A stretch of 64,000 nucleotides of DNA from Minisyncoccota bacterium (GCA_035369485.1 DAOSMC010000001.1:2283-66282), one strand, 5' to 3'. Positions 6,144 through 36,889 are shown, counted from the first letter of the stretch. Numbers and translations are program-made. Notes: generated by a model from the sequence alone, not told the origin.

Positions 6144-6182
6144 CGCAAATTCATTTCTCAAAACAACCAATCAAAGTTTTAT

Positions 6183-19028: not shown

Positions 19029-19030
19029 TA

Positions 19031-19546
19031 ATGAAAAAGATAAAACAAATTTTGCACGTTCTTACTTTTCTGTTATTTATAAGCCTTTTGGCCATTTTAC
19101 AAATAACGATTATTAATCAATATCCCATCGGAGGAGTAAAAGTAAATCTAGTTCTTATAGGATTGTTAGCTAATATTTTTAATCCTCGTTTTGGAAAGGT
19201 GGTTTTAGGTGCTGTTGTAGGAGGTCTGATTTATGATTTTGGCGGGATTTTTAATTTTATTTCTCTAATAAGTTTTTTGGTTACAATAGTAATTCTGCAT
19301 TTATGGAGTAAAAAATATTTGGTTAAAAAGAACATGTTGATGATTTTTTTCTTTGGCGCTATTGGAACAATATTTTTCAATTTTTTTTACGTGCTGTTGA
19401 GTTATTTTCTTTTTCATGCAAACTTTTTTTATTATTTTTTAAGTCTGAGACACGTTGTGGAAATATTACTTAATGGCGGAGGAGCTTTTATTTTTGCTTT
19501 AATTGGTGAGGGATTTACGCAAATAAGCCATTTATTTAAAAAATAA
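19031..19546 (+). CDS. mreD: Rod shape-determining protein MreD
   Basis: A polytopic membrane protein of about 170 aa directly after mreC. The track start is TTG, so the start was trimmed to the ATG at 19031. Confidence 0.5.
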   Translation: MKKIKQILHVLTFLLFISLLAILQITIINQYPIGGVKVNLVLIGLLANIFNPRFGKVVLGAVVGGLIYDFGGIFNFISLISFLVTIVILHLWSKKYLVKKNMLMIFFFGAIGTIFFNFFYVLLSYFLFHANFFYYFLSLRHVVEILLNGGGAFIFALIGEGFTQISHLFKK

Positions 19547-21471
19547 TGAAATTAAATTTTAAGAAGAATAAAAAAGTAAAAAGAGAAAGTGATTTTTTGG
19601 AAGTAGAAGAAATTTTATTTAATAAAGAAGCGGTTTCAAAATTAAAAGAAGAAGAACTTAGTCGTTTGGAGGTTTCTATTGGGAAATGGGGGTTAAATTC
19701 GATTTTTTTGTTTGGGATTTTTCTTTTAATTTTTGCGTTAGGCTTGGTTGGTTATTTAAATTTTGCGAAAGGCGATGAATATCAACAAATTGCCCAAAAA
19801 AATGCTTTAAAATCCATTCCTATTATTGCTGATCGAGGTTTGATTTTTGATAATCATAATAGGGTTTTGGTTTACAATCAAGAAGTATTTGATTTAGTGT
19901 TTTTCCCTGCGTATTTACCTGTTGATAAAATAGAAAGAGAAAAGATATTAAAAAAAATTGAAGAAAAACCAGAAATTGCAGCGGCTATTAATAAAGAAAA
20001 TTTAGAAGAAGATGACCCTTTAGAGAGTATTATTTTACAAAGCAATTTAAGTCGCGAAGAGGCTATTAGATGGGAAAGCTATTTTGCTGGTTATTCAGCA
20101 GTTCAAGTTATTAGGCAAAACTTACGCCAATATACTTCACCACTTGCTTTTAGTCATATTTTAGGTTATGTGGGTCGCGTATCGGCTGAAGATATTCAGA
20201 AAAATCCACTTTATAGTAATTTTGTGAAAATTGGCAAAGCTGGTCTCGAATCTTTTTATGAAGATAATTTACGCGGTCAAGACGGAGAAATTAAAGTACT
20301 AAGAAATGCTTATATGGAAATTTTAGGGCAGAGCGTCGTTAAAGAGCCGGTGGCGGGTAATAATCTTTATTTAACGATTGATGCCGATCTCCAAGAATAC
20401 AGCTATAAAACTCTTGCTCGACAGATTGATAATTTAGGGAAAGAAAGAGGCGGCGTAGTAATTGTTTCTGACCCGCAGAGTGGAGAAATCCTTTCATTAG
20501 TTAGCTACCCAGGTTATGATATCAATAGTTTGTCAAAGGGTATTACCCAGAAAGAATTTGAAACATTAATCAATTCAAAAGTTACTCCTCTTTTTAATCG
20601 AACGGTTTCTGGTCTTTATAATCCAGGTTCAACAATCAAACCAATCATCGCCATTGCTGCTTTAGAAGAAAACATCATCGATCCTTTTAAAAAAATAGAA
20701 ACGCACGGCTATATTACTATTCCTAATCCTTATTTTCCTGATCGGCCATCTATTTTTGTTGATTGGCGTAATAATGGTGTTGTAAACATGCAAGATGCAA
20801 TTGCTCGATCCAGCAACGTTTATTTTTATATTATTGGTGGTGGTTATGAAGATTTTGTTGGATTGGGCATTGAGCGAATTAGAAATTATTTAGAAAAATT
20901 TCAATTTAATCTAGTAACCGGTATTGATTTACCAGCAGAAAAAGTTAGCAATATTCCTGATGAAAAGAGTAAAAACCCCTGGCGTATAGGTGACACCTAC
21001 AATGTTTCTATTGGCCAGGGCGATTTATTAACAACACCGATAAGATTAATAACGAGTTTAAACGTTATGATTAACGGTGGAAAAATTTTGCGGCCGTATC
21101 TTTTAGATCACATTGCTGATAATAATCAGCGGACAATTTTTCAAAACGAAATACAAGTAGCAAAAGATAATTTTCTAAACTCCAAAAACATAGAGATTGT
21201 AAAAGAAGGAATGCGAAAAACGGTTACGAGTCCTTTAGGCACGGCGCATACTCTTATCGATTTACCATTTAGTGTTGGAGGAAAAAGCGGCAGCGCTCAA
21301 ACATCAGGTAATACAAAAACCAATGCCTTATTTTATGCTTTTGCTCCGTATGACGATCCACAGATTTCCGTTTTAATTTTAATTGAAGATGTACCGGAAG
21401 GTTCTTTAAATGCTATTCCAGTAGCAAAAGATATTTTAATGTGGTATTATAAAAATAGAGGTTTTAAATAA
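19546..21471 (+). CDS. mrdA: Penicillin-binding protein 2 (elongasome transpeptidase)
   Basis: N-terminal TM, then SxxK (GSTIKP), SxN (SSNVYF) and KSG motifs. Genomic context with mreBCD. Confidence 0.75.
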   Translation: MKLNFKKNKKVKRESDFLEVEEILFNKEAVSKLKEEELSRLEVSIGKWGLNSIFLFGIFLLIFALGLVGYLNFAKGDEYQQIAQKNALKSIPIIADRGLIFDNHNRVLVYNQEVFDLVFFPAYLPVDKIEREKILKKIEEKPEIAAAINKENLEEDDPLESIILQSNLSREEAIRWESYFAGYSAVQVIRQNLRQYTSPLAFSHILGYVGRVSAEDIQKNPLYSNFVKIGKAGLESFYEDNLRGQDGEIKVLRNAYMEILGQSVVKEPVAGNNLYLTIDADLQEYSYKTLARQIDNLGKERGGVVIVSDPQSGEILSLVSYPGYDINSLSKGITQKEFETLINSKVTPLFNRTVSGLYNPGSTIKPIIAIAALEENIIDPFKKIETHGYITIPNPYFPDRPSIFVDWRNNGVVNMQDAIARSSNVYFYIIGGGYEDFVGLGIERIRNYLEKFQFNLVTGIDLPAEKVSNIPDEKSKNPWRIGDTYNVSIGQGDLLTTPIRLITSLNVMINGGKILRPYLLDHIADNNQRTIFQNEIQVAKDNFLNSKNIEIVKEGMRKTVTSPLGTAHTLIDLPFSVGGKSGSAQTSGNTKTNALFYAFAPYDDPQISVLILIEDVPEGSLNAIPVAKDILMWYYKNRGFK

Positions 21472-24899: not shown

Positions 24900-24914
24900 T
24901 ATCATATTTATGTT

Positions 24915-25718
24915 ATGCCTTATCGACTTACATCTTATAAATTAAGGCAGATTCAAAAGAAAAAACAAAGAAGGCGAACTATTTTTGTTATCATTATTAT
25001 TGTTCTCTTCATTTGTTGCCTCGGCGGGATATTATTTTTTTCACCTCTTTTTCAAATCAACAGCATAGCTATTAATTCTACTCATTTTGTTAAAATGAGC
25101 GATATTTTTCAGAAAGCAACCGAGCAGTTTAAGGATCAAAAACTGTTTAATTTAATAACCGTTCCGGCTAACCTCATTCTTTTTACTCAAGCTGATTGTA
25201 AGGCTATTGAAAAATATTTCGTGGCTTTGGATTCTGTTGACTGCCAAAAAATTTATATTGCTAAAATGCTTAAAATTGAAGCGCGAGAAAAACAACAAAT
25301 AGGAATCCTTTGTTCTGATTCGGTAATTAAAAACCATGGAAATTGTTTGTATTTTGATCAAAACGGTATCGTATTTGCTCTAGCCGAAGAAGACGATGAT
25401 TTTGATCATTCTCTTATTGCGATGCAAGATGTTACTAATCGCATTTATCAATTAGGTGATAAAATTATTTCCTATGATTTTTCGCCTGTGGTAAAAATAA
25501 AAGACATTTTGGCGAATCATCAATTAATATTGAATAAAATAGAAATTGATGATCATGATGTGGTTTATTTTTTTGAAAACGGATTTAAATTGTTAATTTC
25601 TCAAGAAAAATTAAAAGAGACAGCGAATATTTTACCTCGTTTATTAGAAATAGAATTCGATTTACAAAAATTAGAGTATTTAGATCTACGCTTTTTGCCA
25701 AAGATGTATTATAAGTAG
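24915..25718 (+). CDS. Single-pass membrane protein, possibly an FtsQ/DivIB-like (POTRA) cell-division protein
   Basis: A basic N-terminus, one TM helix, and a periplasmic domain of the size of FtsQ. The family assignment is from topology only. Confidence 0.3.
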   Translation: MPYRLTSYKLRQIQKKKQRRRTIFVIIIIVLFICCLGGILFFSPLFQINSIAINSTHFVKMSDIFQKATEQFKDQKLFNLITVPANLILFTQADCKAIEKYFVALDSVDCQKIYIAKMLKIEAREKQQIGILCSDSVIKNHGNCLYFDQNGIVFALAEEDDDFDHSLIAMQDVTNRIYQLGDKIISYDFSPVVKIKDILANHQLILNKIEIDDHDVVYFFENGFKLLISQEKLKETANILPRLLEIEFDLQKLEYLDLRFLPKMYYK

Positions 25719-25754
25719 ATTGAAAGATTAGAGTGATAAAGATAGGGTTTTTAA

Positions 25755-25793
25755 GGGGCGACGAAAATTTTCTTTGAAAATTTTCGTCGCCCC
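25755..25793. repeat. GC-stem palindromic element, copy G: perfect 18-bp stem, between convergent genes
   Basis: ggggcgacgaaaattttc-ttt-gaaaattttcgtcgcccc. Confidence 0.7.
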
Positions 25794-25804
25794 GTCCGTC
25801 GCAT

Positions 25805-26542
25805 TTATTTTCTTGATTTAGCCACTGTTAAGCCAATGATTTTTTTAGAGCCATTTTGTTTTAAAACTCGCGCAGCCTCTTGCATTGTAGCACCAGAAGT
25901 AAAGACGTCATCTATAAGAATGATATTCTTGTTTTTTAAGGAATTTTTATCCTTAACTTCAAAAGCATTTTTGAGATTTAAGTGGCGTTCCTCATAATTA
26001 TCAAGTTTTGCTTGAGGATGTGTATTTTTTTGGCGTATTAAAATTTCACTATTTATTTCTAATTGAAAATAGTTAGCAAAAATTTTAGCTATTTCTTCGC
26101 TTTGATTAAATCCGCGTTCTTTGAAGCGTTGACGCGAAAGAGGAATGGCGATGACGATTGCTCCAGAAAATTGTTTTTTAAGATCAGGCCATATTTTTTC
26201 CCAGTAGTTAATGACGATGTTGCCGAGTGTATGGCGAATGTCTTTAACAAACTGATATTTGTAAAGATGAATAAGTTTTTGGACGAGAGGATTTTCATAG
26301 TCAGTAGCCGAAGCAATAAAATCCAGAGGGGAATAATTATTGGAGTGGGAACATTTTTTGAATTGGCCAATTCTTTTGAGACAAATAGGGCAGAATAATG
26401 ATGAGTATAGAGGAATGGTTTTTAGGCAATTTTCACAAAGATAGAGACCGCTTTCGTTTTTAATAAAAGCGCCGCAATTTAAACAAAAAATTGGGAAAAG
26501 GCAATCATAGATTAAATTTTTTATTTTGATTATTTTATTCAT
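25805..26542 (-). CDS. comFC: ComF-family phosphoribosyltransferase (ComFC-like competence protein)
   Basis: An N-terminal double zinc-finger Cys cluster (CLNCGAF...CENCL...CPICLKRI) and a C-terminal PRTase motif IILIDDVFTSGATM. Confidence 0.65.
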   Translation of the reverse strand: MNKIIKIKNLIYDCLFPIFCLNCGAFIKNESGLYLCENCLKTIPLYSSLFCPICLKRIGQFKKCSHSNNYSPLDFIASATDYENPLVQKLIHLYKYQFVKDIRHTLGNIVINYWEKIWPDLKKQFSGAIVIAIPLSRQRFKERGFNQSEEIAKIFANYFQLEINSEILIRQKNTHPQAKLDNYEERHLNLKNAFEVKDKNSLKNKNIILIDDVFTSGATMQEAARVLKQNGSKKIIGLTVAKSRK

Positions 26543-26627
26543 TGTGGATAAGTATAACTTGTTGCTTCCAACTATCTTTTAAATTATAATATAATAAAAG
26601 AGAAAATTAATTCTAGAAATAAATTTT

Positions 26628-27668
26628 ATGCGCACTTTAGGAATTGATATTGGGACAACTAATATAAAAGCAGTGGAACTTTCTGGGACACTGAATAATA
26701 TAATTTTAGAGAATTATGGTATTTTAGAAACTTACGGTTATTTAGAGCGTAGCAATGCTGCTATTCAAACGAATTATTTTAAACTTGTTGAAGAAATAAC
26801 AACAGAATTATTAAGGCAATTATTTTCAGCGTTCAAACCTAAAACAAAAAGAGCATTTTTTTCATTGCCTGTGTTTTCTAGTTTTATTACGAATTTCGAT
26901 TTGCCATTTACTAATAATAAAGAAATTGTTCAAGCAGTTCCTTTTGAAGCTAAAAAATATATCCCATTACCGTTGGAGGAATTAGAAATTAATTGGATGG
27001 TGATAGCAAAAGCTGCAGATGGAAGAAAAGAAAAAAGCAGAATTGTTTTGGTGGCAACACCAAAGGAATTGATTCAAAAATATCAACACATTGCTCAAAC
27101 ACTCGGATTAAATCTGATGGGTTGGGAAATCGAAGGATTTTCTTTAGCCCGAACGCTTGTGGCAGATGATAAAACGCCAACATTAATAGTTGATATTGGC
27201 ACTCAGGTTACAAATCTTTTTGTAGTAGATAACACTTTTTTGGTTAATTTCGAAAGTTTAAATATTGGAGGTGCTGAAATCACTCATATTATTAGTCAAA
27301 GTTTAGGCGTTACTCAAGAACGAGCAGAAGAGTTTAAAAAAATTAAAGGATTCAAAGTTAATCCAGAAGAAATGGGTGTTGTTAATGTATTGATGCCAAT
27401 TGTGGATAATTTTGGGAATGAAATTTTAAGAATGATTGATATCTATCGCGAAAAAAATAATCGTCAAATAGAAAAAGTCATTCTTACAGGAGGAACGGCT
27501 AATATGCCAGGATTAACCGAGTATTTTACTGAATTTTTGAATTTGCCAGTAGAAAAAGCATGGCCATTTAAGCAGATAAAATACCAACAGTTTTTAGAGC
27601 CGCTTTTAAGGGATACAGCTCCATTTTTAAGCATAGCGACTGGTGTGGCAATGAAGGGCTTGGAATAG
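26628..27668 (+). CDS. pilM: Type IV pilus assembly ATPase-fold protein PilM
   Basis: Actin-like fold (LGIDIGTTNIKAVE), about 345 aa, first gene of the pilus operon. Confidence 0.6.
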   Translation: MRTLGIDIGTTNIKAVELSGTLNNIILENYGILETYGYLERSNAAIQTNYFKLVEEITTELLRQLFSAFKPKTKRAFFSLPVFSSFITNFDLPFTNNKEIVQAVPFEAKKYIPLPLEELEINWMVIAKAADGRKEKSRIVLVATPKELIQKYQHIAQTLGLNLMGWEIEGFSLARTLVADDKTPTLIVDIGTQVTNLFVVDNTFLVNFESLNIGGAEITHIISQSLGVTQERAEEFKKIKGFKVNPEEMGVVNVLMPIVDNFGNEILRMIDIYREKNNRQIEKVILTGGTANMPGLTEYFTEFLNLPVEKAWPFKQIKYQQFLEPLLRDTAPFLSIATGVAMKGLE

Positions 27669-27752
27669 TTGTGAAAAAGGATTATAATAAAAATTAGAGG
27701 GGGAGTTGCATTTGGAGATTTAAAATATAAAGGTTATAATAAAAGAAATAAT

Positions 27753-28286
27753 ATGGCAGATTTTCAAGCAATAGAACCATTAAATAAAAAAAAGACAACA
27801 GGATGGATGACTAATTTAATTACTGTTGCAGTAATTATTTTTGTTGTGGTTTTTGCTTTATATTTTGTAGGCGTGTTTTATGAGAATTATATAACAAAAA
27901 ACATATCCGATATTAATGATAAAATTAAGGATTTGGCGAAAGAAATACCGATTGAAGATCGAAATGAAGTATTGACCTTTTATTCCCAATTAATAAATCT
28001 TAGAGCTTTGTTAGCAAATCATTTGTATCCATCTAACATCTTTTCTCGTTTAGAGCTTATCACCCATCCTCAAGTAACTTTTACCACCTTTTCTTATGAA
28101 AATAAAACTTCAATAATTAAGTTAGAAGGATATGCGCGTGATTTAAATGTTCTAGCACAACAACTTTTAGCTTTGCAAAAAACAACAGATTTCGTCAAAA
28201 TTACAGTGAACGATATAAAAAACGCAGCAGACAAAGTGCAATTTGGAGTCGAAATTAATTTTAATCCAACTTTTATTCACAAATAA
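27753..28286 (+). CDS. PilN-like bitopic inner-membrane pilus assembly protein
   Basis: An N-terminal TM helix with a periplasmic coiled-coil domain. Position after pilM. Confidence 0.35.
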   Translation: MADFQAIEPLNKKKTTGWMTNLITVAVIIFVVVFALYFVGVFYENYITKNISDINDKIKDLAKEIPIEDRNEVLTFYSQLINLRALLANHLYPSNIFSRLELITHPQVTFTTFSYENKTSIIKLEGYARDLNVLAQQLLALQKTTDFVKITVNDIKNAADKVQFGVEINFNPTFIHK

Positions 28287-28289
28287 ATT

Positions 28290-28901
28290 ATGAAAGAATC
28301 GGAAAAAAGAACTATTAGTATTATTATTATTTTGGCTCTTTTTATTGGAGCGGCTATAGTATTTTTTACAATGACTTGGCCGATGTTCGATCAAGTTTTA
28401 AAAGATAATAGAAATCTTGCTTTGGCGAAAGCCGAATATCAAAGACAGGTAGAAGCAGTTCGATTAGCAAAAACCATCGTAGAACAGTATAAAAACCTAA
28501 CGGATGTTAATCAGATGATTTCATTAACCATGCCTCGAAGTGAAGAGTTGTATAATGCAATAGTTCAATTAAATAAAATTTCAGAAGATAGTGGGTTGAG
28601 CATTCAAAGTATTGCGTTGCAAAAAATTGCTAGCGCTACTACTGCACCTAGCAAGACGTTAAGTACATCTTCTCAAAGCTTGTTAAAATCACCACAGCAG
28701 TTGGCTCTGACACTATCTCTTAACGGAACATACGAATCATTTAAAACCTGGTTAGAAGCTGTTGAGACGAATATTCGTTTGATGGATATAACTAATATTT
28801 CTTTTTCCGGAGTTAAAGCTACACCAACAGAGAGAGGGGGTGATGCAGGTTTCAACTTTTTCAACTTTAGCGTTGCTTTAAATTTATATTATCAACCATA
28901 A
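28290..28901 (+). CDS. PilO-like bitopic pilus assembly protein
   Basis: N-terminal TM plus coiled-coil, operon position. Confidence 0.35.
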   Translation: MKESEKRTISIIIILALFIGAAIVFFTMTWPMFDQVLKDNRNLALAKAEYQRQVEAVRLAKTIVEQYKNLTDVNQMISLTMPRSEELYNAIVQLNKISEDSGLSIQSIALQKIASATTAPSKTLSTSSQSLLKSPQQLALTLSLNGTYESFKTWLEAVETNIRLMDITNISFSGVKATPTERGGDAGFNFFNFSVALNLYYQP

Positions 28902-28906
28902 TTAAT

Positions 28907-29278
28907 ATGGAAACTATAGAACAAAAATCAAAAACTAATATCTTTATTTATATTATCATTGCAATTTTAATTGTTGCTATTGTGGGAGTTTATTTTGTAT
29001 TTTTCGCTCCCGAAAAATTAGCAACTTCAGAAACACCCACTGCTATTCCTGTTACTAATACAACTGTTGAAGAGGTTGGTTCGTCTCCTGCGACAAAGAC
29101 TACATCAGCTCCTTTAGTAAGCCATTCCACCTCCACCGATATTACTGGAGGGTTAAGCTCTCTTAAATTAACGCCAGAAGATATTTTAAATAATCCCATC
29201 TTTCAATCATTACGTGCTTATGCTGAACCAGTTGAAGTGCCAACACTTGGTCGTCCGAACCCATTTATTCCTTATTAA
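28907..29278 (+). CDS. Small Thr/Ser-rich membrane-anchored protein of the pilus operon (PilP-like?)
   Basis: An N-terminal TM helix, a low-complexity T/S-rich linker and a short C-terminal domain. Confidence 0.25.
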   Translation: METIEQKSKTNIFIYIIIAILIVAIVGVYFVFFAPEKLATSETPTAIPVTNTTVEEVGSSPATKTTSAPLVSHSTSTDITGGLSSLKLTPEDILNNPIFQSLRAYAEPVEVPTLGRPNPFIPY

Positions 29279-29294
29279 AAATAATTAAAATAAA

Positions 29295-31055
29295 ATGATC
29301 CCAAACAAAATTTTATTAGAACTTTTAGTTAAAAATAATAAAATTGATCAGGCCACGGCCGACAAACTTCTCAAAGATAGCCAGACGCTTAATCAACCAG
29401 TAGAAGAAATTATTTACGAAAGAAATCTCGTTCCTCAAGATGAGGTAGCAAAAATTAAAAGCGAGTACTATAAAATTCCAACAAAACATTTCACCAAAGA
29501 GGATATTATTCCCAACGAAGTTTTGAATATTATCCCAGAAGAGGTAGCGCGCACACATCAAATAGTGGCTTTTAAAAAAGATGGAGATACTTTGCACGTT
29601 GGAATGCTTTCTCCTGATGATCAACAAGCTCAGGATATTTTGAAATTTATTGCCAAACAACGCAAACTCAACATTGCAATTTATCTAGTTACTAAATCAG
29701 ACTTGGAAAACATCTGGAAGAATTATCGATCATTTGCTACGCGCTTAAAAGAAATTCAAGACAGCGTAGATATTTTCAAAAGACAAAGCAAGCCATCTCA
29801 TCAACTCTATCAGCAGCGCGTGGTGCGGATTGATGAAGCAAGTGGTATCATTGCTGAAGAGGCGCCAATTATTACGATTGTTTCTACTGTATTAGAAGAA
29901 GCAGTTGAATCAAACGCTTCCGATATTCATATCGAGCCGATGAGAAATAAATTACGCATCCGTTTTCGATTAGACGGCGAGTTGAAAGAAGTACTTTCTC
30001 TTCCTTTGGAATTACAACCAGCGATTATTGCCCGTATTAAAATTCTTTCTGATTTAAAAATTGATGAAACTAGAATTCCTCAAGATGGACGTTTTAGAAC
30101 TATTTTGGATAATAAAGAAATTGATTTTCGTGTAGCGACGTTTCCGACGGCTTTGGGCGAAAAGGTAGCGGTACGTGTTCTTAATCCGTATGTCGGCTTA
30201 AAAACTATTGATGATTTGGGAGTGAGAGCATATCATAAAACTTTGATTGAAGAAGCTATTGCAAAACCATTTGGAATGATTTTAGCCACCGGTCCGACAG
30301 GGTCAGGAAAAACAACTACACTTTATGCTATTCTCCAAGGATTAAATAAAGAAGCGGTAAATATTGTAAGCCTTGAGGATCCGGTAGAGTATTTTATTGA
30401 AGGATTAAATCAATCTCAAGTTAAACCAGAAATTGGTTATGATTTTGCTTCTGGTTTAAGACAGATTGTTCGTCAAGACCCCGATATTATTATGGTAGGA
30501 GAAATTCGAGATAATGAAACTGCAGCTTTGGCAGTACACGCTGCTTTGACTGGTCATTTAGTGCTTTCAACTCTTCATACCAACAATGCAATAGGAGTAA
30601 TTCCGCGTTTAATTGATATGAAAATTGAGCCATATCTTTTACCAGCTTCTTTGATTTTAATGATGGCCCAACGTTTAGTAGGAAGACTTTGTGATCAGTG
30701 TAAACAAAAAGTAGAAGCAACTGGTAGCTTGAAAGAGGAAATAGAAAAATCCATAGCTGCGTTGCCAAAAGAATTGAGGGCAAAGTATCAAAAAGATAAA
30801 TATGAAATTTATTTACCTCAGGGTTGCAAGGAGTGTAATTATAAAGGGATAAAGGGAAGAATGCCTCTCTTTGAAGTTCTCAAAATGACACCATCACTTG
30901 AAGAGATTGTTTTAAAAGATCCATCGGCGGCTAATTTACAACAAGAAGCAGAAAAACAAGGAATGGTTACTCTACGTCAGGATGGCATTATTAAGGCGCT
31001 CGAAGGACTAATTTCCATTGAGGAAGTTCTAAAAGAAACAATGGAAAAAGATTAA
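29295..31055 (+). CDS. pilB: Type IV pilus extension ATPase PilB
   Basis: GspE_N domain, Walker A GPTGSGKTTT, a tetracysteine motif (CDQC...CKEC) and an Asp box. Confidence 0.8.
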   Translation: MIPNKILLELLVKNNKIDQATADKLLKDSQTLNQPVEEIIYERNLVPQDEVAKIKSEYYKIPTKHFTKEDIIPNEVLNIIPEEVARTHQIVAFKKDGDTLHVGMLSPDDQQAQDILKFIAKQRKLNIAIYLVTKSDLENIWKNYRSFATRLKEIQDSVDIFKRQSKPSHQLYQQRVVRIDEASGIIAEEAPIITIVSTVLEEAVESNASDIHIEPMRNKLRIRFRLDGELKEVLSLPLELQPAIIARIKILSDLKIDETRIPQDGRFRTILDNKEIDFRVATFPTALGEKVAVRVLNPYVGLKTIDDLGVRAYHKTLIEEAIAKPFGMILATGPTGSGKTTTLYAILQGLNKEAVNIVSLEDPVEYFIEGLNQSQVKPEIGYDFASGLRQIVRQDPDIIMVGEIRDNETAALAVHAALTGHLVLSTLHTNNAIGVIPRLIDMKIEPYLLPASLILMMAQRLVGRLCDQCKQKVEATGSLKEEIEKSIAALPKELRAKYQKDKYEIYLPQGCKECNYKGIKGRMPLFEVLKMTPSLEEIVLKDPSAANLQQEAEKQGMVTLRQDGIIKALEGLISIEEVLKETMEKD

Positions 31056-31082
31056 AGTTAAAGGCGTTTAATTTTAAATTTT

Positions 31083-32159
31083 ATGGCAGATGTTTTTTAT
31101 AAAGAAAAAATAGAAAATTTATTAACTTTAACAGCGCAACAAAATGCGTCTGATTTACATTTTTCAGTTGGTCGCAAACCAACGTTAAGAATTGATGGGC
31201 GTTTAGTTTCTATTGCCAAGGAAGAAGTTTTTACCAAAGAAGTGGTTGAAGGATTAATTGATGCTTTGGTGCCGTCTGGCCGAAAGGAAGAATTTTTGAA
31301 AAATCGAGAAATAGACTTTTCTTACACCTTATCAGATAAAGCTCGTTTTCGAGTAAATGTTTATTTTCAAAGGGGGAATATGGCAGCCGCGTTAAGATTT
31401 ATTCCTTATAAAATTAGAACAATTGAAGAATTGAATTTACCGCCTATTTTACACGATTTTGCAAAATACAGCCAAGGTTTTATTTTAGCAGTAGGACCAG
31501 CGGGTCATGGGAAATCAACAACGTTAGCGGCTATTATTGATGAAATTAATCACGAACGAACAGCCCACATTATTACTATTGAAGATCCTATTGAATACGT
31601 TTTTGTTCAAGATCGTTCGATTATTGATCAGAGAGAGGTTTTATCGGATACATTAAGTTTTCATCGTGGCTTGCGTTCTGTTTTAAGACAAGATCCAGAT
31701 GTTATTATGGTTGGAGAAATGCGAGATCCCGAAACGATTCAAACAGCGATAACCGCTGCTGAAACAGGGCATCTTGTTTTTTCTACTTTGCATACCAATT
31801 CTGCTTCACAAACGATTGATCGCATTATCGATAGTTTCCCTGCTTCCCAACAATCGCAGATTAGAACTCAATTAGCGGCAACACTAGTCGGAATTATTTC
31901 TCAACGTTTAGTACCGCGATTAAATGGTGGTAGAATTCCCGCCTGTGAAGTAATGCTTACCAACTCAGCTATTCGTAATTTAATTCGTGAAGATAAAATT
32001 TATCAAATTGATTTGGTTATTGAAACAAGCATTCAAGAACGTATGATTTCATTGAATCGTTCATTGGCTAACTTGGTTAAACAAAGCGAAATTTCTTTAG
32101 AAACTGCCGAATCGTATTCATTAAACCCGGCAGAATTAGCTAATCTTTTAGCTCGTTAA
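31083..32159 (+). CDS. pilT: Type IV pilus retraction ATPase PilT
   Basis: 358 aa, Walker A GPAGHGKST, and the PilT-specific AIRNLIRE motif. Confidence 0.8.
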   Translation: MADVFYKEKIENLLTLTAQQNASDLHFSVGRKPTLRIDGRLVSIAKEEVFTKEVVEGLIDALVPSGRKEEFLKNREIDFSYTLSDKARFRVNVYFQRGNMAAALRFIPYKIRTIEELNLPPILHDFAKYSQGFILAVGPAGHGKSTTLAAIIDEINHERTAHIITIEDPIEYVFVQDRSIIDQREVLSDTLSFHRGLRSVLRQDPDVIMVGEMRDPETIQTAITAAETGHLVFSTLHTNSASQTIDRIIDSFPASQQSQIRTQLAATLVGIISQRLVPRLNGGRIPACEVMLTNSAIRNLIREDKIYQIDLVIETSIQERMISLNRSLANLVKQSEISLETAESYSLNPAELANLLAR

Positions 32160-32168
32160 TTAAACTCT

Positions 32169-33380
32169 ATGGCAAAGTTTCGTTATACAGGCAGAAATGA
32201 TTTAGGAGAAATTCAAAGCGGCGTTGTTGAAGCAGGCAGTCGTGATTTGGCTATTAAAATTTTACAAGATAATAAAATATATGTTCTTTCTTTAGAGTCT
32301 TTAGAAAAGAAGGGATTTTTGGATAGGCTGCTTCAGTCATTTCAACGCGTCAAAACAAAAGACCTTATGATTTTTACTCGTCAGTTAAGTGTTTTACTTT
32401 CGGCAAAGGTTCAATTAGTTGATTCGTTGAAAGCTCTTTATAATCAAGTGACAGATCCCTTGTTGAAGGATGCTATTTTTGATGTTTTTACTGATGTGGA
32501 AGGAGGGATGTATTTTTCTCAAGCTTTAGCAAAGCACCCGAAGGTATTTTCTGATTTTTTTGTAAACATGGTTCGTTCTGCTGAATTATCCGGTCGTCTT
32601 GAAGAGACGTTGAATTACCTTGCGGATTACTTAGAAAAAGATAATAATTTAAAAACAAAATTAAGAAATGCCATGATCTATCCTGCATTTATCATTGTGG
32701 TGTTTTTGGCCGTAATGATATTGGTAGTCACTGTTGTTATTCCTCAATTAAAAGGAATTTTTACAGAATCTGGTAGTCAATTACCATTTATTACTAGAGT
32801 GCTGATGAGCGTTGGTGATTTTTTGCTCAATTGGGGCGTGGCGATTATTGTTTTTCTAGTTATTGCTATTTTTCTTTTCGTAAGATATATTAGAACACCG
32901 GAAGGAAAGGCTTTTTGGCAGCAACTTCTACTTTCGTTGCCGATTATTGGACCAATTCAAAAAAAGGTAGCTATTAGTCGCTTTGCTTCTTCCTGCAGCG
33001 CATTGCTGAAAGGTGGATTGCCGATAGCGAGCTCGTTGGAAATTTCCGGGAAAATTGTTAGCAATATCGTTTATGAAGAAATTCTTACCAAAACAGCTGA
33101 TGCTATTCGAAGTGGTGGTACTATTTCTAATTTTTTAGCTCAATACCCAGATTATTTTTCACCAATGGTTATCCAAATGATAGCGGTAGGGGAGGTTTCA
33201 GGTCAAGTTGATGAATTGATGCAGAAGGTAGCTGATTTTTACAGTAACGAGGTTGATCAGACAGCCGCGAACCTAGCAGAAATTATTCAGCCAGTTCTTA
33301 TCGTTATTCTTGGTGTTTTTATTGGTGTTTTTGTGGCAGCAGTGCTAATGCCAATTTATAACTTAGCTCAAGTATTTTAA
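32169..33380 (+). CDS. pilC: Type IV pilus platform protein PilC (GspF family)
   Basis: Two GspF repeats and three or more TM segments, about 400 aa. Confidence 0.8.
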   Translation: MAKFRYTGRNDLGEIQSGVVEAGSRDLAIKILQDNKIYVLSLESLEKKGFLDRLLQSFQRVKTKDLMIFTRQLSVLLSAKVQLVDSLKALYNQVTDPLLKDAIFDVFTDVEGGMYFSQALAKHPKVFSDFFVNMVRSAELSGRLEETLNYLADYLEKDNNLKTKLRNAMIYPAFIIVVFLAVMILVVTVVIPQLKGIFTESGSQLPFITRVLMSVGDFLLNWGVAIIVFLVIAIFLFVRYIRTPEGKAFWQQLLLSLPIIGPIQKKVAISRFASSCSALLKGGLPIASSLEISGKIVSNIVYEEILTKTADAIRSGGTISNFLAQYPDYFSPMVIQMIAVGEVSGQVDELMQKVADFYSNEVDQTAANLAEIIQPVLIVILGVFIGVFVAAVLMPIYNLAQVF

Positions 33381-33444
33381 ATTTTTATAGATATTCTTTA
33401 TAATAAAGGTCGAGATTAATTAAACTCAATTTTAAACTCAAAAC

Positions 33445-33903
33445 ATGAATAAAAAAGAAAAAGGTTTTACCTTAATTGAAATGTTGGTGGTAGTTGCGGT
33501 GATTGGGCTTTTAGCTTCATTGATTTTAGTAGGTTTGTCTAGTTTTAGAACCAGAGGTCGAGATACACGACGAGTGGCTGATACAAAAGAAATTCAGAAT
33601 GGATTGGAGTTGTATTACATGAAAAATGGCAGTTATCCAGTGCTGACGTCTGGTAATTGGGACGATTTAGAACAAGAATTAGTAAATGCTAACCTAGGGA
33701 TTACTAATTTACCTCAGGATCCAACGGCGCCTACCAGGTCTTATGACTATGGTTCGGATGGCCAACATTATGTGATCGCGGTAACGATTGAAGATCCAGA
33801 TGCTAATAAATCTCTTTTAGACAGCGATCTTGATGGTTCGCAATATGGTGGTGTTAATTGTGGTGATGCTTCAAATGATACAATTTATTGTATAGGAATG
33901 TAA
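33445..33903 (+). CDS. Type IV major pilin (prepilin with class III signal peptide)
   Basis: MNKKEKG|FTLIEMLVVVAVIGLLA: a canonical G-F-T-L-I-E prepilin cleavage/methylation motif with a hydrophobic alpha1 helix. Confidence 0.85.
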   Translation: MNKKEKGFTLIEMLVVVAVIGLLASLILVGLSSFRTRGRDTRRVADTKEIQNGLELYYMKNGSYPVLTSGNWDDLEQELVNANLGITNLPQDPTAPTRSYDYGSDGQHYVIAVTIEDPDANKSLLDSDLDGSQYGGVNCGDASNDTIYCIGM

Positions 33904-33914
33904 TTCGTATTTAT

Positions 33915-34835
33915 ATGCTACAGCCAGTTATTATTGCGATTGTTTTTTTACTCGGGTTGGGAGTAGGCAGTTTCATCAATGTAATTACCATTCGCTTCCA
34001 ACCCGATAAAAATATCCCTTTTATTAAATTGGTCAGCGGTCGATCACGCTGTAATTTTTGTAAACATCAACTCAAATGGTATGATCTTATACCAATTTTT
34101 AGTTTTATTTTTTTAAAAGGGAAATGTCGCTATTGTGGTAAAAAACTTTCTTGGCAATATCCTATTATTGAAATATTGACAGGCATAATTTTTGCCGGAG
34201 TAACCTACCGGCTTTTGCGACTTGATGTTATTCGTTTACTTCTAGCGTCGGGCACTATACCTTTTTGGATTTGGTTAGTTTTCCTTCTCTTTTTATTTTA
34301 CAGCGCTGTTTTGATTACTCTTTCTATAATTGATATCAAGCATTATCTTTTACCGGATAAATTAATTTATTCAGCAATAGGCGTTTCAGTAGTGGCAGAT
34401 TTACTTTTTTATGGATTGAGCAAAAGCAGTAAATTTAATTTCCCATCGTGCGGTTTGAATTTTTTAAGTAGTTACATGGATTATTTTAATTGCCAATTTA
34501 ATGTTTTAACCTCTTATTTATTTGGTGCATTGGCAGTAGGAGGGTTTTTGTTTTTAGTTTATCTTTTTACACGAGGAAAAGGAATGGGATTAGGAGATGT
34601 CAAATTAGGGATTTTAATAGGTTTAATGCTTGGGCTGACAAATGGTATTTTAGCTTTGGTAATGGCCTTTATTATTGGTTCTATTGTTGGTATAATATTA
34701 TTAGCCTCTAAAAAGAAGTCTCTTAAGGACTGGGTGCCATTTGGGCCATTTTTAGCATTAGGAGTGTTTATTGTTATTTTTTGGGGCTCATTCTTCGTCG
34801 AATCATATTTTTCAATATTTAACTATCTTATATGA
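33915..34835 (+). CDS. pilD: Prepilin peptidase / N-methyltransferase PilD (A24 family)
   Basis: An N-terminal Cys4 motif (CNFC...CRYC) and a polytopic membrane domain with the catalytic Asp region (GLGDVKLG). The track start at 33888 is TTG, so the start was trimmed to the ATG at 33915. Confidence 0.75.
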   Translation: MLQPVIIAIVFLLGLGVGSFINVITIRFQPDKNIPFIKLVSGRSRCNFCKHQLKWYDLIPIFSFIFLKGKCRYCGKKLSWQYPIIEILTGIIFAGVTYRLLRLDVIRLLLASGTIPFWIWLVFLLFLFYSAVLITLSIIDIKHYLLPDKLIYSAIGVSVVADLLFYGLSKSSKFNFPSCGLNFLSSYMDYFNCQFNVLTSYLFGALAVGGFLFLVYLFTRGKGMGLGDVKLGILIGLMLGLTNGILALVMAFIIGSIVGIILLASKKKSLKDWVPFGPFLALGVFIVIFWGSFFVESYFSIFNYLI

Positions 34836-35299
34836 AAGAAGTTCCTATCTCAAACACTCTATATTGGGCAGCCATTATTTTTATGGCAATAGTTTTCGTA
34901 GCGACAATTATTTTAAATAGCTACCTTTTTGTTTTGGATAATCAGTTAACTCAACAAATTTATTTATCTCGAGTTGCCTTACAAAAAGCCACTTTAATTA
35001 TTGATTACGGCAATGGTCAAAGAAAAATTTTTGAAGGAGATGTTCCTGCGGGCGGTCTTAGTTTATATGATGTTCTTTTGGCTTCGGCTCAAACTGGCAG
35101 TATTAGCGTTCAATTTAGCAAAACAGCCGATGGTCGTGTTTCTCTTGTTAAAATCGATCAGTACGTAAACAACATGGATCATTATTGGGAATTACAGATA
35201 CCAAAATTTAATTGGAAAAGAGCTTTGAATGATAGTACAATTGATTTAACGCAATTTTATCTTGTAGGCGGTAATACTGCTTATCTCGTATATAAATAA
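34832..35299 (+). CDS. Hypothetical membrane-anchored protein at the end of the pilus operon
   Basis: An N-terminal TM helix. Translationally coupled to pilD (4-nt overlap). Confidence 0.4.
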   Translation: MKEVPISNTLYWAAIIFMAIVFVATIILNSYLFVLDNQLTQQIYLSRVALQKATLIIDYGNGQRKIFEGDVPAGGLSLYDVLLASAQTGSISVQFSKTADGRVSLVKIDQYVNNMDHYWELQIPKFNWKRALNDSTIDLTQFYLVGGNTAYLVYK

Positions 35300-35312
35300 A
35301 AACTAAATTAAA

Positions 35313-36140
35313 ATGGAAATTATCAATGGGGAAAATATTTCTCAAGAAATTCTTGAGGATTTAAAGCCGTTTTTTCAAAAACACAAAGCAGCGTTAGCTG
35401 TTATTTCGATAGGCAATAATTTAGGGGGAGAAGTTTTTATTAAACAAAAAAAGAAAGTTGCAGATTATTTATCAATTGAATTTATTCATTTTCATTTTAA
35501 AGAAGACATTTCTAATAAATTATTAAGTAAGAAAATTAATCAAATTGTTAGACAAAATTTTATTAAAGGTGTTGTTTTGCAATTACCATTGCCCAAAAAA
35601 TTTAATACCTATGCTCTGGTAAATATTATTCCTTCTCAAAAAGACGTCGATGTCTTAAATAATGCCCACTTTGCTTCGTATTGTTTTCAACGTAGTTTAA
35701 TTTTACCACCGGCTGTTGAGACAATAAAAATAATTTTTGAAAAATATAATATTAACGTTCAAGAGAAAAATTGTGGGATTGTAGGAGTTGGACGATTAGT
35801 TGGTTTTCCCACTTTGATTTGGTTGTTACAACAGAAGGCTACAGTGTTTGCGGTGGATATTTCTACTAAACAGCCAGAAAAAATTTTGGCGCAATGTGAT
35901 ATAATAATTACAGGCACAGGTAGCCCTCATCTGATTAATAAAAAATTTGTTAAAAAAGGGGCTATTATTATTGATTTTGGGTTTTCTAAAGAAAATGGAA
36001 AAATCAAAGGTGATGTCAATATAGATTCAGTTAAAAAGAAGGCGCTATTAGTAACGCCAACGCCTGGTGGCACTGGTCCCATTCTTGTTGCGGCATTATA
36101 TAAGAATTTAAAAACATTACTACAAAGCAAACAAAAATAA
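35313..36140 (+). CDS. folD: Methylenetetrahydrofolate dehydrogenase / methenyl-THF cyclohydrolase
   Basis: LQLPLPK, a Rossmann motif GIVGVGRLVG, and C-terminal TPGGTGPILVAAL. Confidence 0.7.
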   Translation: MEIINGENISQEILEDLKPFFQKHKAALAVISIGNNLGGEVFIKQKKKVADYLSIEFIHFHFKEDISNKLLSKKINQIVRQNFIKGVVLQLPLPKKFNTYALVNIIPSQKDVDVLNNAHFASYCFQRSLILPPAVETIKIIFEKYNINVQEKNCGIVGVGRLVGFPTLIWLLQQKATVFAVDISTKQPEKILAQCDIIITGTGSPHLINKKFVKKGAIIIDFGFSKENGKIKGDVNIDSVKKKALLVTPTPGGTGPILVAALYKNLKTLLQSKQK

Positions 36141-36187
36141 GGCCGAATTTAACCTATAAGATTAAAAAATTGTTTATTTAACATATT

Positions 36188-36889
36188 ATGGAATTAGCAG
36201 CTAATCCTGGGAAAAAAATAATAATAGAAGTAGATGGAATAAAATGGGCTCGATATCCTATAAAAACCCATTTTATTACGGAAAAAGATAATTTAGATGA
36301 AATTATAAAAAAATACGTTTTGCCTAATGCTCAAAAAGGAGATATAATTTGCCTTGGTCAAAAAATTGTTTCTATTTTACAAGGTTTAATTATTTATAAA
36401 AAAGATTTAAAAGTTGGATGGTGGGCAAATTTTTTGTCAAAATTTGTTAAAAAGACGCCATATGGTTTTTCGGTCGGTAACCCGTTAAAAATGCAGATAG
36501 CTATTAATTTAGCTGGTCTTCCGCGGATTTTATTTGCTGCTGTTGTTGCTGGTATTTCTAAAATATTTGGTTTTTCGGGCGTTTTTTATCGATTAGCCGG
36601 ACACCAAATTTCGCAAATTGATGGTTTTTATGCCGAAGCCTTTCCTCAATATGGCGAAATGGGCATCTTAGGGCCAAAAAATTGTAATGAACTCTGCGAA
36701 AATTTACAGAAAAAATATGACCACTCCTTTTTGGTAATTGATATAAATGACTTGGGGGGTAATATCTTAGGCTGTAGCAAAGATTTAGCAGGAAAAGAGG
36801 GTCTAATTCTTAAAATTTTAAAAGATAATCCTGCTGGGCAGTCTAATCAACAAACACCTATAATAATTTTACGACAATTATGCAATTAA
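36188..36889 (+). CDS. Hypothetical protein (weak resemblance to the CofE / F420-ligase-like fold)
   Basis: No strong motifs. Only a loose similarity around GQKIVSILQG. The family is uncertain. Confidence 0.3.
   Translation: MELAANPGKKIIIEVDGIKWARYPIKTHFITEKDNLDEIIKKYVLPNAQKGDIICLGQKIVSILQGLIIYKKDLKVGWWANFLSKFVKKTPYGFSVGNPLKMQIAINLAGLPRILFAAVVAGISKIFGFSGVFYRLAGHQISQIDGFYAEAFPQYGEMGILGPKNCNELCENLQKKYDHSFLVIDINDLGGNILGCSKDLAGKEGLILKILKDNPAGQSNQQTPIIILRQLCN

What the first reader, a model, noticed from the sequence alone, without database searches (positions are those of the whole stretch)
25805..35299. Complete type IV pilus / DNA-uptake locus with adjacent ComFC in a reduced genome
The locus runs pilM-pilN-like-pilO-like-small T/S-rich protein-pilB-pilT-pilC-pilin-pilD-hypothetical, with comFC divergently upstream. 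The gene set of extension ATPase, retraction ATPase, platform protein, a prepilin with the canonical G|FTLIE site, a prepilin peptidase and the ComF phosphoribosyltransferase is what natural-competence machines in monoderm-like bacteria use. In a streamlined, probably auxotrophic organism that depends on other cells, DNA uptake and/or host attachment via this pilus is a plausible core lifestyle trait. No secretin (PilQ) is encoded in the locus, consistent with a cell envelope lacking an outer membrane. The small proteins at 28907-29278 and 34832-35299 have no family assignment and may be lineage-specific pilus components.
Basis: partly seen in the sequence, partly recalled or inferred. Interest (0 to 1): 0.5.

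Follow-up and report, generated by a model that had tools for sequence, protein, structure and literature searches.

The report
Type IV pilus–ComF operon, Paceibacteria
This is a real, intact gene cluster for a retractable type IV pilus with a competence gene (comF) beside it, in an ultra-small Paceibacteria (CPR) bacterium; the layout is already documented for this group, so it is a sound annotation rather than a discovery, apart from one small unnamed protein that turns out to be a constant part of the cluster.

Summary
Profile HMMs confirm comF(-) | pilM-pilN-pilO-small protein-pilB-pilT-pilC-prepilin-pilD-small protein at 25805-35299. The organism is a Paceibacteria/Parcubacteria (CPR) bacterium. 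The same block recurs in 80 species-level genomes. ComF lies divergently next to PilM in 55 of 63 testable loci, while the genes beyond ComF vary. So ComF belongs to the module, which supports a link to DNA uptake, but that link is inferred from context only.

"Complete" is too strong. The window has one prepilin and no minor pilins, whereas 49 of 57 relatives carry 1-4 downstream of pilD. It also has no ComEC, ComEA or DprA. No secretin is present, as published for CPR.

The 123-aa protein is not lineage-specific. A homologue or look-alike (TM helix, variable linker, C-terminal GRxNPF peptide) sits between PilO and PilB in all 79 loci examined. It has no Pfam or PDB relative. I propose, untested, that it is a minimal PilP-like connector.

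The 155-aa protein occurs only in the closest relatives. It is a TM helix plus a transcobalamin-beta/DUF4430-like beta-grasp domain, not a pilin or PilP fold.

Type IV pili, ComFC and the missing PilQ in CPR are published, so this is a new member of a known kind. Interest is low to moderate.

The parts
25805..26542 (-). comF (ComFC/GntX-type): N-terminal Cys-rich zinc ribbon plus PRPP-binding phosphoribosyltransferase domain, divergent from pilM
   Evidence: Pfam Pribosyltran E 4.8e-8 and DZR_2; NCBIfam TIGR00201 E 9e-31 and NF008616 GntX E 1.1e-30, both below the curated cut-offs. Three CxxC and IILIDDVFTSGAT. Divergently adjacent to PilM in 55 of 63 related loci.
26543..26627 (.). 85-nt AT-rich divergent intergenic region between comF and pilM (presumed shared promoter region)
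   Evidence: Sequence. The promoter scan found no more sites than in shuffles, so no site is claimed. In L086 the comF-pilMNO block is inverted as one unit, which keeps this junction.
26628..27668 (+). pilM (actin-like cytoplasmic alignment protein)
   Evidence: TIGR01175, 152.5 bits, above the cut-off of 133; PF11104 E 3.8e-41.
27753..28286 (+). pilN (bitopic alignment protein)
   Evidence: PF05137, 24.8 bits against a gathering score of 22.8. Conserved position in all related loci. The N-terminal PilM-binding INLLP motif is degenerate here (MADFQAIEPL).
28290..28901 (+). pilO (bitopic alignment protein)
   Evidence: PF04350, 23.5 bits against a gathering score of 22; conserved position.
28907..29278 (+). 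p123: small bitopic protein. Conserved N-terminal tail, TM helix 12-33, T/S-rich disordered linker, conserved C-terminal peptide ending GRPNPFIPY. Constant member of the locus; proposed PilP-like connector.
   Evidence: No Pfam, NCBIfam or PDB relative. A profile hit or a same-architecture ORF lies between PilO and PilB in 79 of 79 loci. 133 cluster representatives at E<=1e-3 among 1.84 billion, mostly 95-100 aa. G115 and F120 invariant, R116, N118 and P119 nearly so. AF2: TM helix, disordered linker, confident but fold-less C-terminus.
29295..31055 (+). pilB (extension ATPase) with N-terminal MshEN domain and tetracysteine motif
   Evidence: T2SSE E 4.6e-126 and MshEN E 9e-12; best NCBIfam hit TIGR02538 PilB, 551 bits, below the cut-off of 675. 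CDQC/CKEC and GPTGSGKT.
31083..32159 (+). pilT (retraction ATPase)
   Evidence: TIGR01420, 445 bits, above the cut-off of 319. AIRNLIRE motif at residue 296 and no CxxC.
32169..33380 (+). pilC (polytopic platform protein)
   Evidence: Two T2SSF domains, E 2.8e-61; GspF and PilC NCBIfam models E 1e-107 to 1e-88, all below their cut-offs.
33445..33903 (+). Major prepilin. 7-residue leader MNKKEKG|FTLIE, 145-aa mature protein, acidic (pI 4.2), two C-terminal Cys.
   Evidence: N_methyl E 3.2e-9 and TIGR02532. It is the only class-III signal in the 64-kb window. pI and Cys count.
33915..34835 (+). pilD (prepilin peptidase / N-methyltransferase). The ORF listing starts at TTG 33888; ATG 33915 is preferred.
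   Evidence: A24_N_bact E 3.5e-30 and Peptidase_A24 E 2.9e-11. CNFC/CRYC and GLGD. Called as a 306-aa gene.
34832..35299 (+). p155: TM helix plus transcobalamin-beta/DUF4430-like beta-grasp domain. It overlaps the pilD stop by 4 nt and occurs only in the closest relatives, at the position where other Paceibacteria encode minor pilins. Its membership of the pilus system is unproven.

Best explanation
The locus encodes the full membrane machinery of a retractile type IVa-like pilus, adapted to a cell without an outer membrane, in a Paceibacteria (CPR) bacterium.

How it works, by homology with characterised systems. PilD cleaves and methylates the prepilin at G|F. PilC forms the platform. PilM, PilN and PilO form the alignment complex. 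PilB powers extension and PilT powers retraction. No secretin is needed.

The small bitopic protein p123 is a constant extra subunit. I infer that it acts as a PilP-like connector. Its conserved C-terminal GRxNPF peptide would dock onto the extracytoplasmic PilN/PilO domains, and a PilQ-binding domain is not needed.

ComF is a zinc-finger plus PRPP-binding protein. In model bacteria it hands incoming single-stranded DNA from ComEC to DprA/RecA. Here it is inherited together with the pilus block and shares a divergent promoter region with pilM. The pilus is therefore very probably co-expressed with, and used for, DNA capture and uptake, as well as for the attachment and twitching functions shown for CPR pili.

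Shown here: gene identities, motifs, conserved synteny, the folds of the two small proteins. Inferred: the pilus function, the ComF coupling, the role of p123. The minor pilins, ComEC and DprA needed for a working uptake route must be encoded outside the window.
For: HMM assignments for all nine core genes and catalytic or signature motifs. Tight same-strand spacing.

The order ComF(-)|PilM-N-O-p123-PilB-T-C-pilin-PilD recurs in 80 species-level Paceibacteria genomes with PilB identity of 49-89%. ComF is divergently adjacent to PilM in 55 of 63 loci. The three genes beyond ComF are not conserved (111 different Pfam families in 120 ORFs). In L086 comF-pilMNO is inverted as one block.

A p123-type ORF is present in 79 of 79 loci, with an invariant G...F and a nearly invariant R, N and P.

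No secretin is present in the window.

Literature. PilB/T/C/M/N/O/D and pilins co-localise in CPR genomes, PilQ is absent, and ComEC, DprA and ComFC are widespread (PMC6744442). Saccharibacteria are naturally competent through comEC and their type IV pili are essential (PMC10633639). ComFC is a zinc finger plus a PRT domain, associates with the membrane and binds ssDNA (PMC9005727).
Against: No ComEC, ComEA or DprA lies in the 64 kb, and there are no minor pilins.

The major pilin is strongly acidic (pI 4.2), so it is not itself a likely DNA binder.

The ComF score is below NCBIfam's curated cut-offs and there is no detectable sequence match to any solved ComFC.

In Saccharibacteria the essential role of type IV pili is independent of comEC, and T4P-2 does not contribute to competence (PMC12206443).

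p123 shows no detectable homology to PilP.

Genes are packed tightly along this whole strand, with folD 13 nt after p155, so adjacency alone is weak evidence in this genome.
Confidence: 0.8

Rival explanations
1. The pilus serves only host attachment and twitching motility (the episymbiotic lifestyle). ComF lies next to it for historical or regulatory reasons and has no mechanistic link to the pilus.
For: In Saccharibacteria, type IV pili are essential even though comEC is dispensable, and they drive twitching and host binding (PMC10633639; PMC12206443). The major pilin here is acidic. There is no ComEC, ComEA or DprA in the window. The pilin allele differs sharply between otherwise identical strains (66% identity against 100% for flanking genes), as expected for a surface-interaction or phage-exposed structure.
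Against: ComF stays with PilM in 55 of 63 loci while all further flanking genes change, and the pair inverts as a unit in L086. That is hard to explain without functional or regulatory coupling. The two roles are also not exclusive.
Confidence: 0.3
2. The block is a type II secretion-like pseudopilus system that exports proteins, rather than a surface pilus.
For: The best NCBIfam hit of PilC is GspF (358.6 bits). The pilin has a sub-threshold GspG match (E 6.7e-13). PilB scores nearly as well against GspE as against PilB.
Against: All those GspF, GspG and GspE scores are below their cut-offs. A bona fide PilT is present (445 bits, above its cut-off, with AIRNLIRE), and PilM, PilN and PilO are present. 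There is no GspC, GspD, GspL or GspM and no secretin. Cells without an outer membrane do not need a T2SS (PMC6744442).
Confidence: 0.05
3. The locus is a decaying remnant in this clade. Having lost the minor-pilin cassette, it no longer assembles pili.
For: This clade has no prepilin-like ORFs downstream of pilD, whereas 49 of 57 relatives have 1-4. Only one prepilin lies in the 64 kb.
Against: All ten genes are intact and have their catalytic motifs. Within the clade the proteins remain conserved: PilT 87-94% and PilB 81-89% identical across L007-L009, while the neighbouring FtsQ-like protein falls to 33-61%. The exact p155 sequence is listed in 114 blocks of the assembly collection. The apparent PilM and PilT fragments in two MAGs are runs of N, not mutations. 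Minor pilins can be encoded elsewhere, as in TM7x loci 3 and 4.
Confidence: 0.07

Closest known systems
Type IV pilus gene clusters of CPR/Patescibacteria (Meheust et al. 2019, PMC6744442) and the Saccharibacteria T4P-1 locus (PMC12206443; PMC10633639)
   Same: The components PilB, PilT, PilC, PilM, PilN, PilO, PilD and a pilin are co-localised. There is no PilQ. ComFC, ComEC and DprA are widespread in the same genomes. The host organism is small, reduced and lacks an outer membrane.
   Different: TM7x locus 1 carries five pilins, while this window carries one. In the four papers I read I found no mention of the fixed divergent ComF-PilM pairing, of the small GRxNPF protein between PilO and PilB, or of p155. 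That is absence in four papers, not a literature survey.
Type IVa pili of monoderm Firmicutes such as Clostridium (from my own knowledge; Melville and Craig 2013 is cited in PMC6744442)
   Same: PilB, PilT, PilC, PilD and PilM/N/O without a secretin or PilP. Short-leader G|F...E5 pilins.
   Different: Those loci are not known to include comF or a GRxNPF bitopic protein. I did not test this here.
Haemophilus influenzae comABCDEF competence operon (from my own knowledge, not tested here)
   Same: PilM/N/O(P/Q) homologues (ComA-E) are encoded together with the ComFC homologue ComF. This is a precedent for genetic linkage of the alignment complex and ComF in a DNA-uptake machine.
   Different: There comF is co-directional and lies downstream of a secretin gene in a diderm. 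Here it is divergent, upstream of pilM, and no secretin exists.
PilP (inner-membrane lipoprotein of diderm T4aP), as a functional analogue of p123
   Same: It is encoded directly after pilO. It is membrane-anchored. A disordered segment carries a short R-x-PF-type peptide that binds PilN/PilO (the PilP motif is from my own knowledge).
   Different: p123 has a TM helix instead of a lipobox and no C-terminal beta-sandwich (HR) domain. It has no PF04351 hit at E<=0.1, and no PilP family appears among the Pfam matches of 57 family members scanned at E<=0.01. It resembles PilP in position and architecture but is not a member of the family.
Transcobalamin beta-domain / DUF4430-like beta-grasp proteins (PDB 5no0, 2bb6, 3u7z), for p155
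   Different: No sequence-level Pfam match even at E<=10. p155 has an N-terminal TM helix. Its ligand is unknown. There is no evidence that it binds cobalamin or takes part in piliation.

Membership tests
Type IVa pilus machinery | Extension ATPase PilB (T2SSE fold, Walker A, tetracysteine zinc motif) | tested here: met
   PF00437 E 4.6e-126. The best NCBIfam model is PilB TIGR02538 at 551 bits, below the equivalog cut-off of 675. GPTGSGKT and CDQC/CKEC.
Type IVa pilus machinery | Retraction ATPase PilT with the AIRNLIRE motif | tested here: met
   TIGR01420, 445 bits, above the cut-off of 319. AIRNLIRE at residue 296.
Type IVa pilus machinery | Platform protein PilC with two T2SSF domains | tested here: met
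   PF00482, two stretches, E 2.8e-61.
Type IVa pilus machinery | Alignment subcomplex PilM, PilN and PilO | tested here: met
   PilM above the NCBIfam cut-off. PilN and PilO just above the Pfam gathering scores (24.8 against 22.8; 23.5 against 22). The canonical INLLP PilM-binding motif of PilN is degenerate, so that sub-feature is inconclusive.
Type IVa pilus machinery | Prepilin with a short class-III signal (G at -1, F at +1, E at +5) and a prepilin peptidase | tested here: met
   MNKKEKG|FTLIE; N_methyl E 3.2e-9. PilD has A24_N_bact plus Peptidase_A24 and GLGD.
Type IVa pilus machinery | A set of minor pilins that primes assembly | tested here: not met
   No second class-III signal in the 64-kb window. 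49 of 57 related loci have 1-4 downstream of pilD, and this clade has none. They may lie elsewhere in the genome, which these tools cannot check.
Type IVa pilus machinery (diderm form) | Secretin PilQ and lipoprotein PilP | tested here: not met
   No Secretin or PilP hit among the 54 ORFs scanned with Pfam. The 12 unscanned ORFs of at least 110 aa are two tRNA synthetases and ten 117-210 aa ORFs in the ribosomal-protein operon. This is as expected for CPR (PMC6744442). The locus is therefore filed as the monoderm-type variant.
ComF / ComFC family | N-terminal 4-Cys zinc finger | tested here: met
   CLNC, CENC and CPIC at residues 20-54. DZR_2 E 3.4e-5, below the gathering score. The feature is defined in PMC9005727.
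ComF / ComFC family | C-terminal type-I PRT domain with a PRPP loop | tested here: met
   PF00156, 32.9 bits against a gathering score of 26.3. IILIDDVFTSGAT.
ComF / ComFC family | Scores above the curated family threshold | tested here: not met
   TIGR00201 107 bits against 233.55. NF008616 107 bits against 304. These are the best hits by about 23 orders of magnitude over other PRTases, so it is a divergent member.
ComF / ComFC family | Required for DNA import; binds ssDNA; ComEC-dependent membrane association | not testable with these tools
   Experimental properties (PMC9005727).
PilP (PF04351), considered for p123 | Sequence match to PilP, a lipobox, and a C-terminal beta-sandwich domain | tested here: not met
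   No PF04351 hit at E<=0.1, and none among 57 family members scanned at E<=0.01. The AF2 model has a TM helix plus a disordered linker and no beta domain. Profile hits are mostly 95-100 aa.
Type IV (minor) pilin, considered for p155 and p123 | Class-III signal peptide (G at -1 and E at +5) and a pilin alpha-beta fold | tested here: not met
   Neither protein has the motif. The globular domain of p155 is a transcobalamin-like beta-grasp. p123 has no globular domain. p155 does have a long N-terminal helix (residues 8-50) and an invariant S7-N8..L10-Y11-W12, so a very atypical pilin-like anchor is not fully excluded.
DUF4430 / transcobalamin beta-domain, considered for p155 | Sequence match to the Pfam model; fold match | tested here: inconclusive

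The most novel reading that the evidence does not exclude
In Paceibacteria the type IV pilus block is a fixed ten-gene module that includes two unrecognised functional parts.

(i) A universal mini-subunit of about 100-125 aa. It has a conserved N-terminal tail, a TM helix and a C-terminal GRxNPF docking peptide. It would replace PilP in a secretin-less machine.

(ii) ComF as a co-regulated member. This would couple pilus retraction physically or transcriptionally to ssDNA import.

In the window's clade, the locus-encoded minor-pilin cassette has in addition been replaced by a membrane-anchored beta-grasp ligand-binding protein (p155). This protein could act as a surface receptor. ComEA is reported missing from most CPR genomes.
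Probability: 0.15. Interest if true: 0.5.

Novelty: new member of a known kind. Interest (0 to 1): 0.22.

Why it matters
Type IV pili and the Com proteins are thought to be central to how CPR bacteria attach to hosts and scavenge DNA or nucleotides. This locus is a clean, intact example from Paceibacteria, a class that has no genetic system yet.

The useful additions are comparative. First, ComF travels with the pilus block across about 80 species. This is the best genomic-context argument available that these pili and DNA import are linked in this class. Second, a small unannotated GRxNPF protein is a constant subunit, and should be added to models and annotation rules for monoderm/CPR pili. 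Third, the minor-pilin cassette is dispensable at this position in one clade.

None of this overturns current views.

Tried and rejected
1. Promoter and terminator scans of 25600-35500 found no more sites than in shuffled sequence. No regulatory site is claimed.

2. Homology of p123 to PilP or any solved structure. Pfam gave nothing at E<=0.1. The PDB profile search gave only spurious TM-helix matches with E>0.06. A full HMMER profile scan of 1.84 billion representatives gave only short proteins of the same kind. So PilP membership is rejected and only a functional analogy remains.

3. p155 as a minor pilin or a PilP fold: rejected on structure. The DUF4430 assignment could not be confirmed at the sequence level.

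4. Apparent pseudogenisation of pilM and pilT in two NCBI MAGs (L003, L004). These are 100-N runs, not mutations.

5. PilN INLLP motif: degenerate in this lineage and clearer in distant loci (M[VI]E[IL]IPK). Inconclusive.

6. Enrichment of other competence genes in the flank beyond ComF. None was enriched: RecG appears in 7 loci and DprA in at least one, L010.

7. The AFDB fold library was unavailable.

8. The 880-nt ORF-poor gap at 4156-5037 gave only sub-threshold hairpin-type Rfam matches.

9. I did not use the third large protein search. No remaining question would have changed the verdict.

Full report
**1. The observation**

There is a 245-aa ORF on the minus strand at 25805-26542. On the plus strand there are ORFs of 346, 177, 203, 123, 586, 358, 403, 152, 315 and 155 aa. 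They are separated by -4 to 85 nt.

Pfam and NCBIfam confirm every family call:
- ComF-like: double zinc ribbon plus PRTase; TIGR00201 E 9e-31; GntX E 1e-30.
- PilM: TIGR01175 above its cut-off.
- PilN and PilO: just above their Pfam gathering scores.
- PilB: T2SSE plus MshEN.
- PilT: TIGR01420, 445 bits, above the cut-off of 319.
- PilC: two T2SSF domains.
- A prepilin with N_methyl.
- PilD: A24_N_bact plus Peptidase_A24.

Signature motifs are present. These are Walker A and a CxxC...CxxC motif in PilB, AIRNLIRE in PilT, three CxxC and the PRPP loop IILIDDVFTSGAT in ComF, and CxxC twice plus GLGD in PilD. The leader MNKKEKG|FTLIE is in the pilin. The only coordinate correction is that pilD probably starts at ATG 33915 (306 aa, as in the gene calls).

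**2. Organism and context**

The window is about 34% GC with a strong coding-strand bias. It carries housekeeping genes: RuvB, PolA, MurA, two MreB, MreC, PBP2, GreA, FolD, MurJ, LepA, FtsE/X, EF-Tu and the ribosomal-protein operon.

Homologues of the small proteins and of PilB come from "Candidatus Paceibacterota", "Parcubacteria group", "Minisyncoccia" and the Wolfe-, Jorgensen-, Harrison-, Lipton- and Colwellbacteria. So this is a Paceibacteria (CPR) bacterium.

Over the part compared (window 24901-36200) the sequence is 100% identical to locus L001, an ENA metagenome contig of 68 kb. The exact 155-aa protein is listed in 114 blocks of the assembly collection.

No secretin is encoded in the 64 kb. 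Fifty-four of the 66 non-nested ORFs of at least 110 aa were scanned with Pfam and none hit a secretin family. The twelve not scanned are the lysyl- and seryl-tRNA synthetases and ten ORFs of 117-210 aa in the ribosomal-protein operon.

**3. Comparative anatomy**

A scan of one genome per species with PilB returned 80 loci with PilB identity of 49-89%. I searched their six-frame ORFs with the window proteins and with profiles of the two small-protein families. The order ComF(-)|PilM-PilN-PilO-p123-PilB-PilT-PilC-pilin-PilD is almost invariant.

ComF is divergently adjacent to PilM in 55 of the 63 loci that have at least 900 nt upstream of pilM. The three genes beyond ComF are not conserved. 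The 120 ORFs there hit 111 different Pfam families. RecG occurs in 7 loci and DprA in at least one, L010. In L086 the comF-pilMNO block is inverted as a single unit.

ComF is therefore part of the conserved module and not a chance neighbour. This is the strongest evidence here for a link between this pilus and DNA import. It is still context evidence only.

**4. The 123-aa protein**

The profile of this family hit an ORF between PilO and PilB in 68 of 79 loci. In the other 11, an ORF of the same architecture is visible by eye. It has an MAI(I/V)xEE.K tail, one TM helix, a linker and a C-terminal G(R/K)xNPF.

A full HMMER profile search of 1.84 billion representative proteins gave 133 hits at E<=1e-3, mostly of 95-100 aa. 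G115 and F120 are invariant. R116, N118, P119, Y29, F32 and L102 are nearly so. The T/S-rich linker of the window protein is a lineage-specific expansion.

The family has no Pfam, NCBIfam or PDB relative. AlphaFold gives three parts:
- a confident TM helix at residues 12-33;
- a disordered linker, with pLDDT about 55-60;
- a confident C-terminal 40 residues (pLDDT 85-94) with no globular fold, which is the behaviour of a docking peptide.

It is neither a pilin nor a PilP fold. Its position after pilO and its anchor-linker-peptide architecture match what would remain of PilP if the secretin-binding domain were removed. I therefore propose a PilP-like connector role. This is an inference. Membership of the PilP family was tested and not met.

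**5. The 155-aa protein**

It has only 10 detectable homologues of 154-156 aa, with 42 invariant columns. It occurs only in the closest relatives, L001-L009.

There is no sequence-level Pfam match. The ectodomain is near neutral (pI 6.8).

In most other Paceibacteria the position after pilD is occupied by prepilin-like genes. Of the 57 loci with enough sequence there, 49 have 1-4 such genes, and 33 have three. The window's clade has none.

So p155 sits where minor pilins normally are, but it is not a pilin by signal peptide or fold. Its involvement in piliation is unproven. The 4-nt overlap with pilD means little in a genome where folD follows 13 nt later.

**6. Completeness**

Only one class-III signal peptide exists in the 64 kb, under both a strict and a relaxed motif. 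ComEC, ComEA and DprA are not in the window. "Complete type IV pilus / DNA-uptake locus" is therefore overstated.

The membrane machinery is complete. The minor pilins and the DNA channel must be encoded elsewhere, or be absent.

The major pilin is acidic (pI 4.2) and has two C-terminal cysteines. It is not an obvious DNA binder.

**7. Mechanism and rivals**

The best-supported reading is a retractile, secretin-less type IVa-like pilus with ComF as a co-inherited partner, serving DNA capture as well as attachment and motility.

The main rival is that the pilus serves attachment and motility only. It rests on Saccharibacteria genetics. There, type IV pili are essential although comEC is dispensable, and T4P-2 contributes to host binding but not to competence. 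The two roles are compatible.

A T2SS-like reading is unlikely, because PilT and PilMNO are present and the Gsp-specific parts are absent.

A decaying-remnant reading is unlikely. All genes are intact. They are conserved across the clade. The apparent fragmentation in two MAGs is caused by runs of N.

**8. Comparison with what is known**

Meheust et al. 2019 already report that PilB/T/C/M/N/O/D and pilins co-localise in many CPR genomes. They also report that PilQ is absent, that ComEC, DprA and ComFC are widespread, and that ComEA is often missing. Wang et al. 2023 showed natural competence through comEC in Saccharibacteria. Grossman et al. 2025 dissected two Saccharibacteria pili. ComFC's zinc finger plus PRT architecture and its role in ssDNA handling are established.

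The finding is thus a new member of a known kind. Three things are not mentioned in the four papers I read. These are the quantified ComF-PilM linkage in Paceibacteria, the universal GRxNPF mini-protein, and the clade-specific replacement of the minor-pilin cassette by a beta-grasp protein. This is absence in four papers, not a literature survey.

**9. Verdict**

- Observation: confirmed.
- Interpretation: partly supported. The gene calls and the envelope inference are right. "Complete" and the DNA-uptake role are not demonstrated.
- Novelty: new member of a known kind.
- Interest: about 0.2.

Noticed in passing
window 715-4155: A second PilB/GspE-type ATPase (2476-4155, 559 aa). It is 40% identical to the locus PilB and has Walker A and CxxC...CxxC. 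It lies 22 kb upstream, next to a 491-aa TM protein with no family (715-2190). No second PilC is in the window. Some relatives have an extra PilB (L012) or PilB+PilC (L038, L067) just upstream of comF. It may belong to a second pilus or secretion system.
   Followed up: partly
window 6105-7520: A 471-aa protein with two lamin-tail domains (PF00932, E 5e-35) and a C-terminal TM anchor; it is acidic. From my own knowledge, LTDs are often attached to extracellular nucleases and to some ComEC proteins, so it is a candidate surface DNA-handling protein. Untested.
   Followed up: no
window 4156-5037: An 880-nt stretch with no ORF over 60 aa, unusual in this densely packed window. Rfam gives only sub-threshold hairpin-type matches, on both strands, around 4177-4231. 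This is probably a terminator hairpin, and the rest is unexplained.
   Followed up: partly
L003, L004, L006 compared with window 26603-36200: Mosaic identity between strains. In two NCBI MAGs the comF-pilB half is about 78% identical to the window and the pilT-to-MurJ half is 99.7% identical, with the switch at a 100-N gap inside pilT. In L006 the pilin is only 66% identical (PilC 89%, PilD 84%), while p155 and FolD are 100% identical. Either the scaffolds are chimeric, or there is real recombination and pilin-allele replacement within the locus.
   Followed up: partly
L086 (JBBTXG010000008.1): The comF-pilM-pilN-pilO block is inverted as one unit relative to p123-pilB-pilT-pilC-pilin-pilD. 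The divergent comF/pilM junction is preserved.
   Followed up: no
L010-L084, 0-3 kb downstream of pilD: Most Paceibacteria loci carry a conserved cassette of about three prepilin-like genes after pilD. The first has GFT(L/I)(I/V)E and a ...CGYGVHF...IFIPPDP motif. The second has G(Y/Q)LLIE... These are probably the minor-pilin priming set, which the window's clade lacks at this site.
   Followed up: partly
window 12081-13088, 17189-21471: Two MreB paralogues plus MreC, a no-family ORF in the MreD position (18989-19546) and a PBP2-type transpeptidase. This is a full rod-shape system in an ultra-small bacterium.
   Followed up: no
window 24915-25718: A 267-aa TM protein between SerRS and comF, with only a weak FtsQ match at its N-terminus (NF004039, E 8e-5). 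It diverges fast between relatives (33-61% identity where PilT is 87-94%).
   Followed up: no
L010 1959-2858 (-); seven other loci: A DprA gene (PF02481, E 4e-77) lies three genes beyond comF in a Wolfebacteria genome. RecG lies in the same flank in 7 loci. This is an occasional, not conserved, clustering of recombination genes near the pilus-comF block.
   Followed up: no
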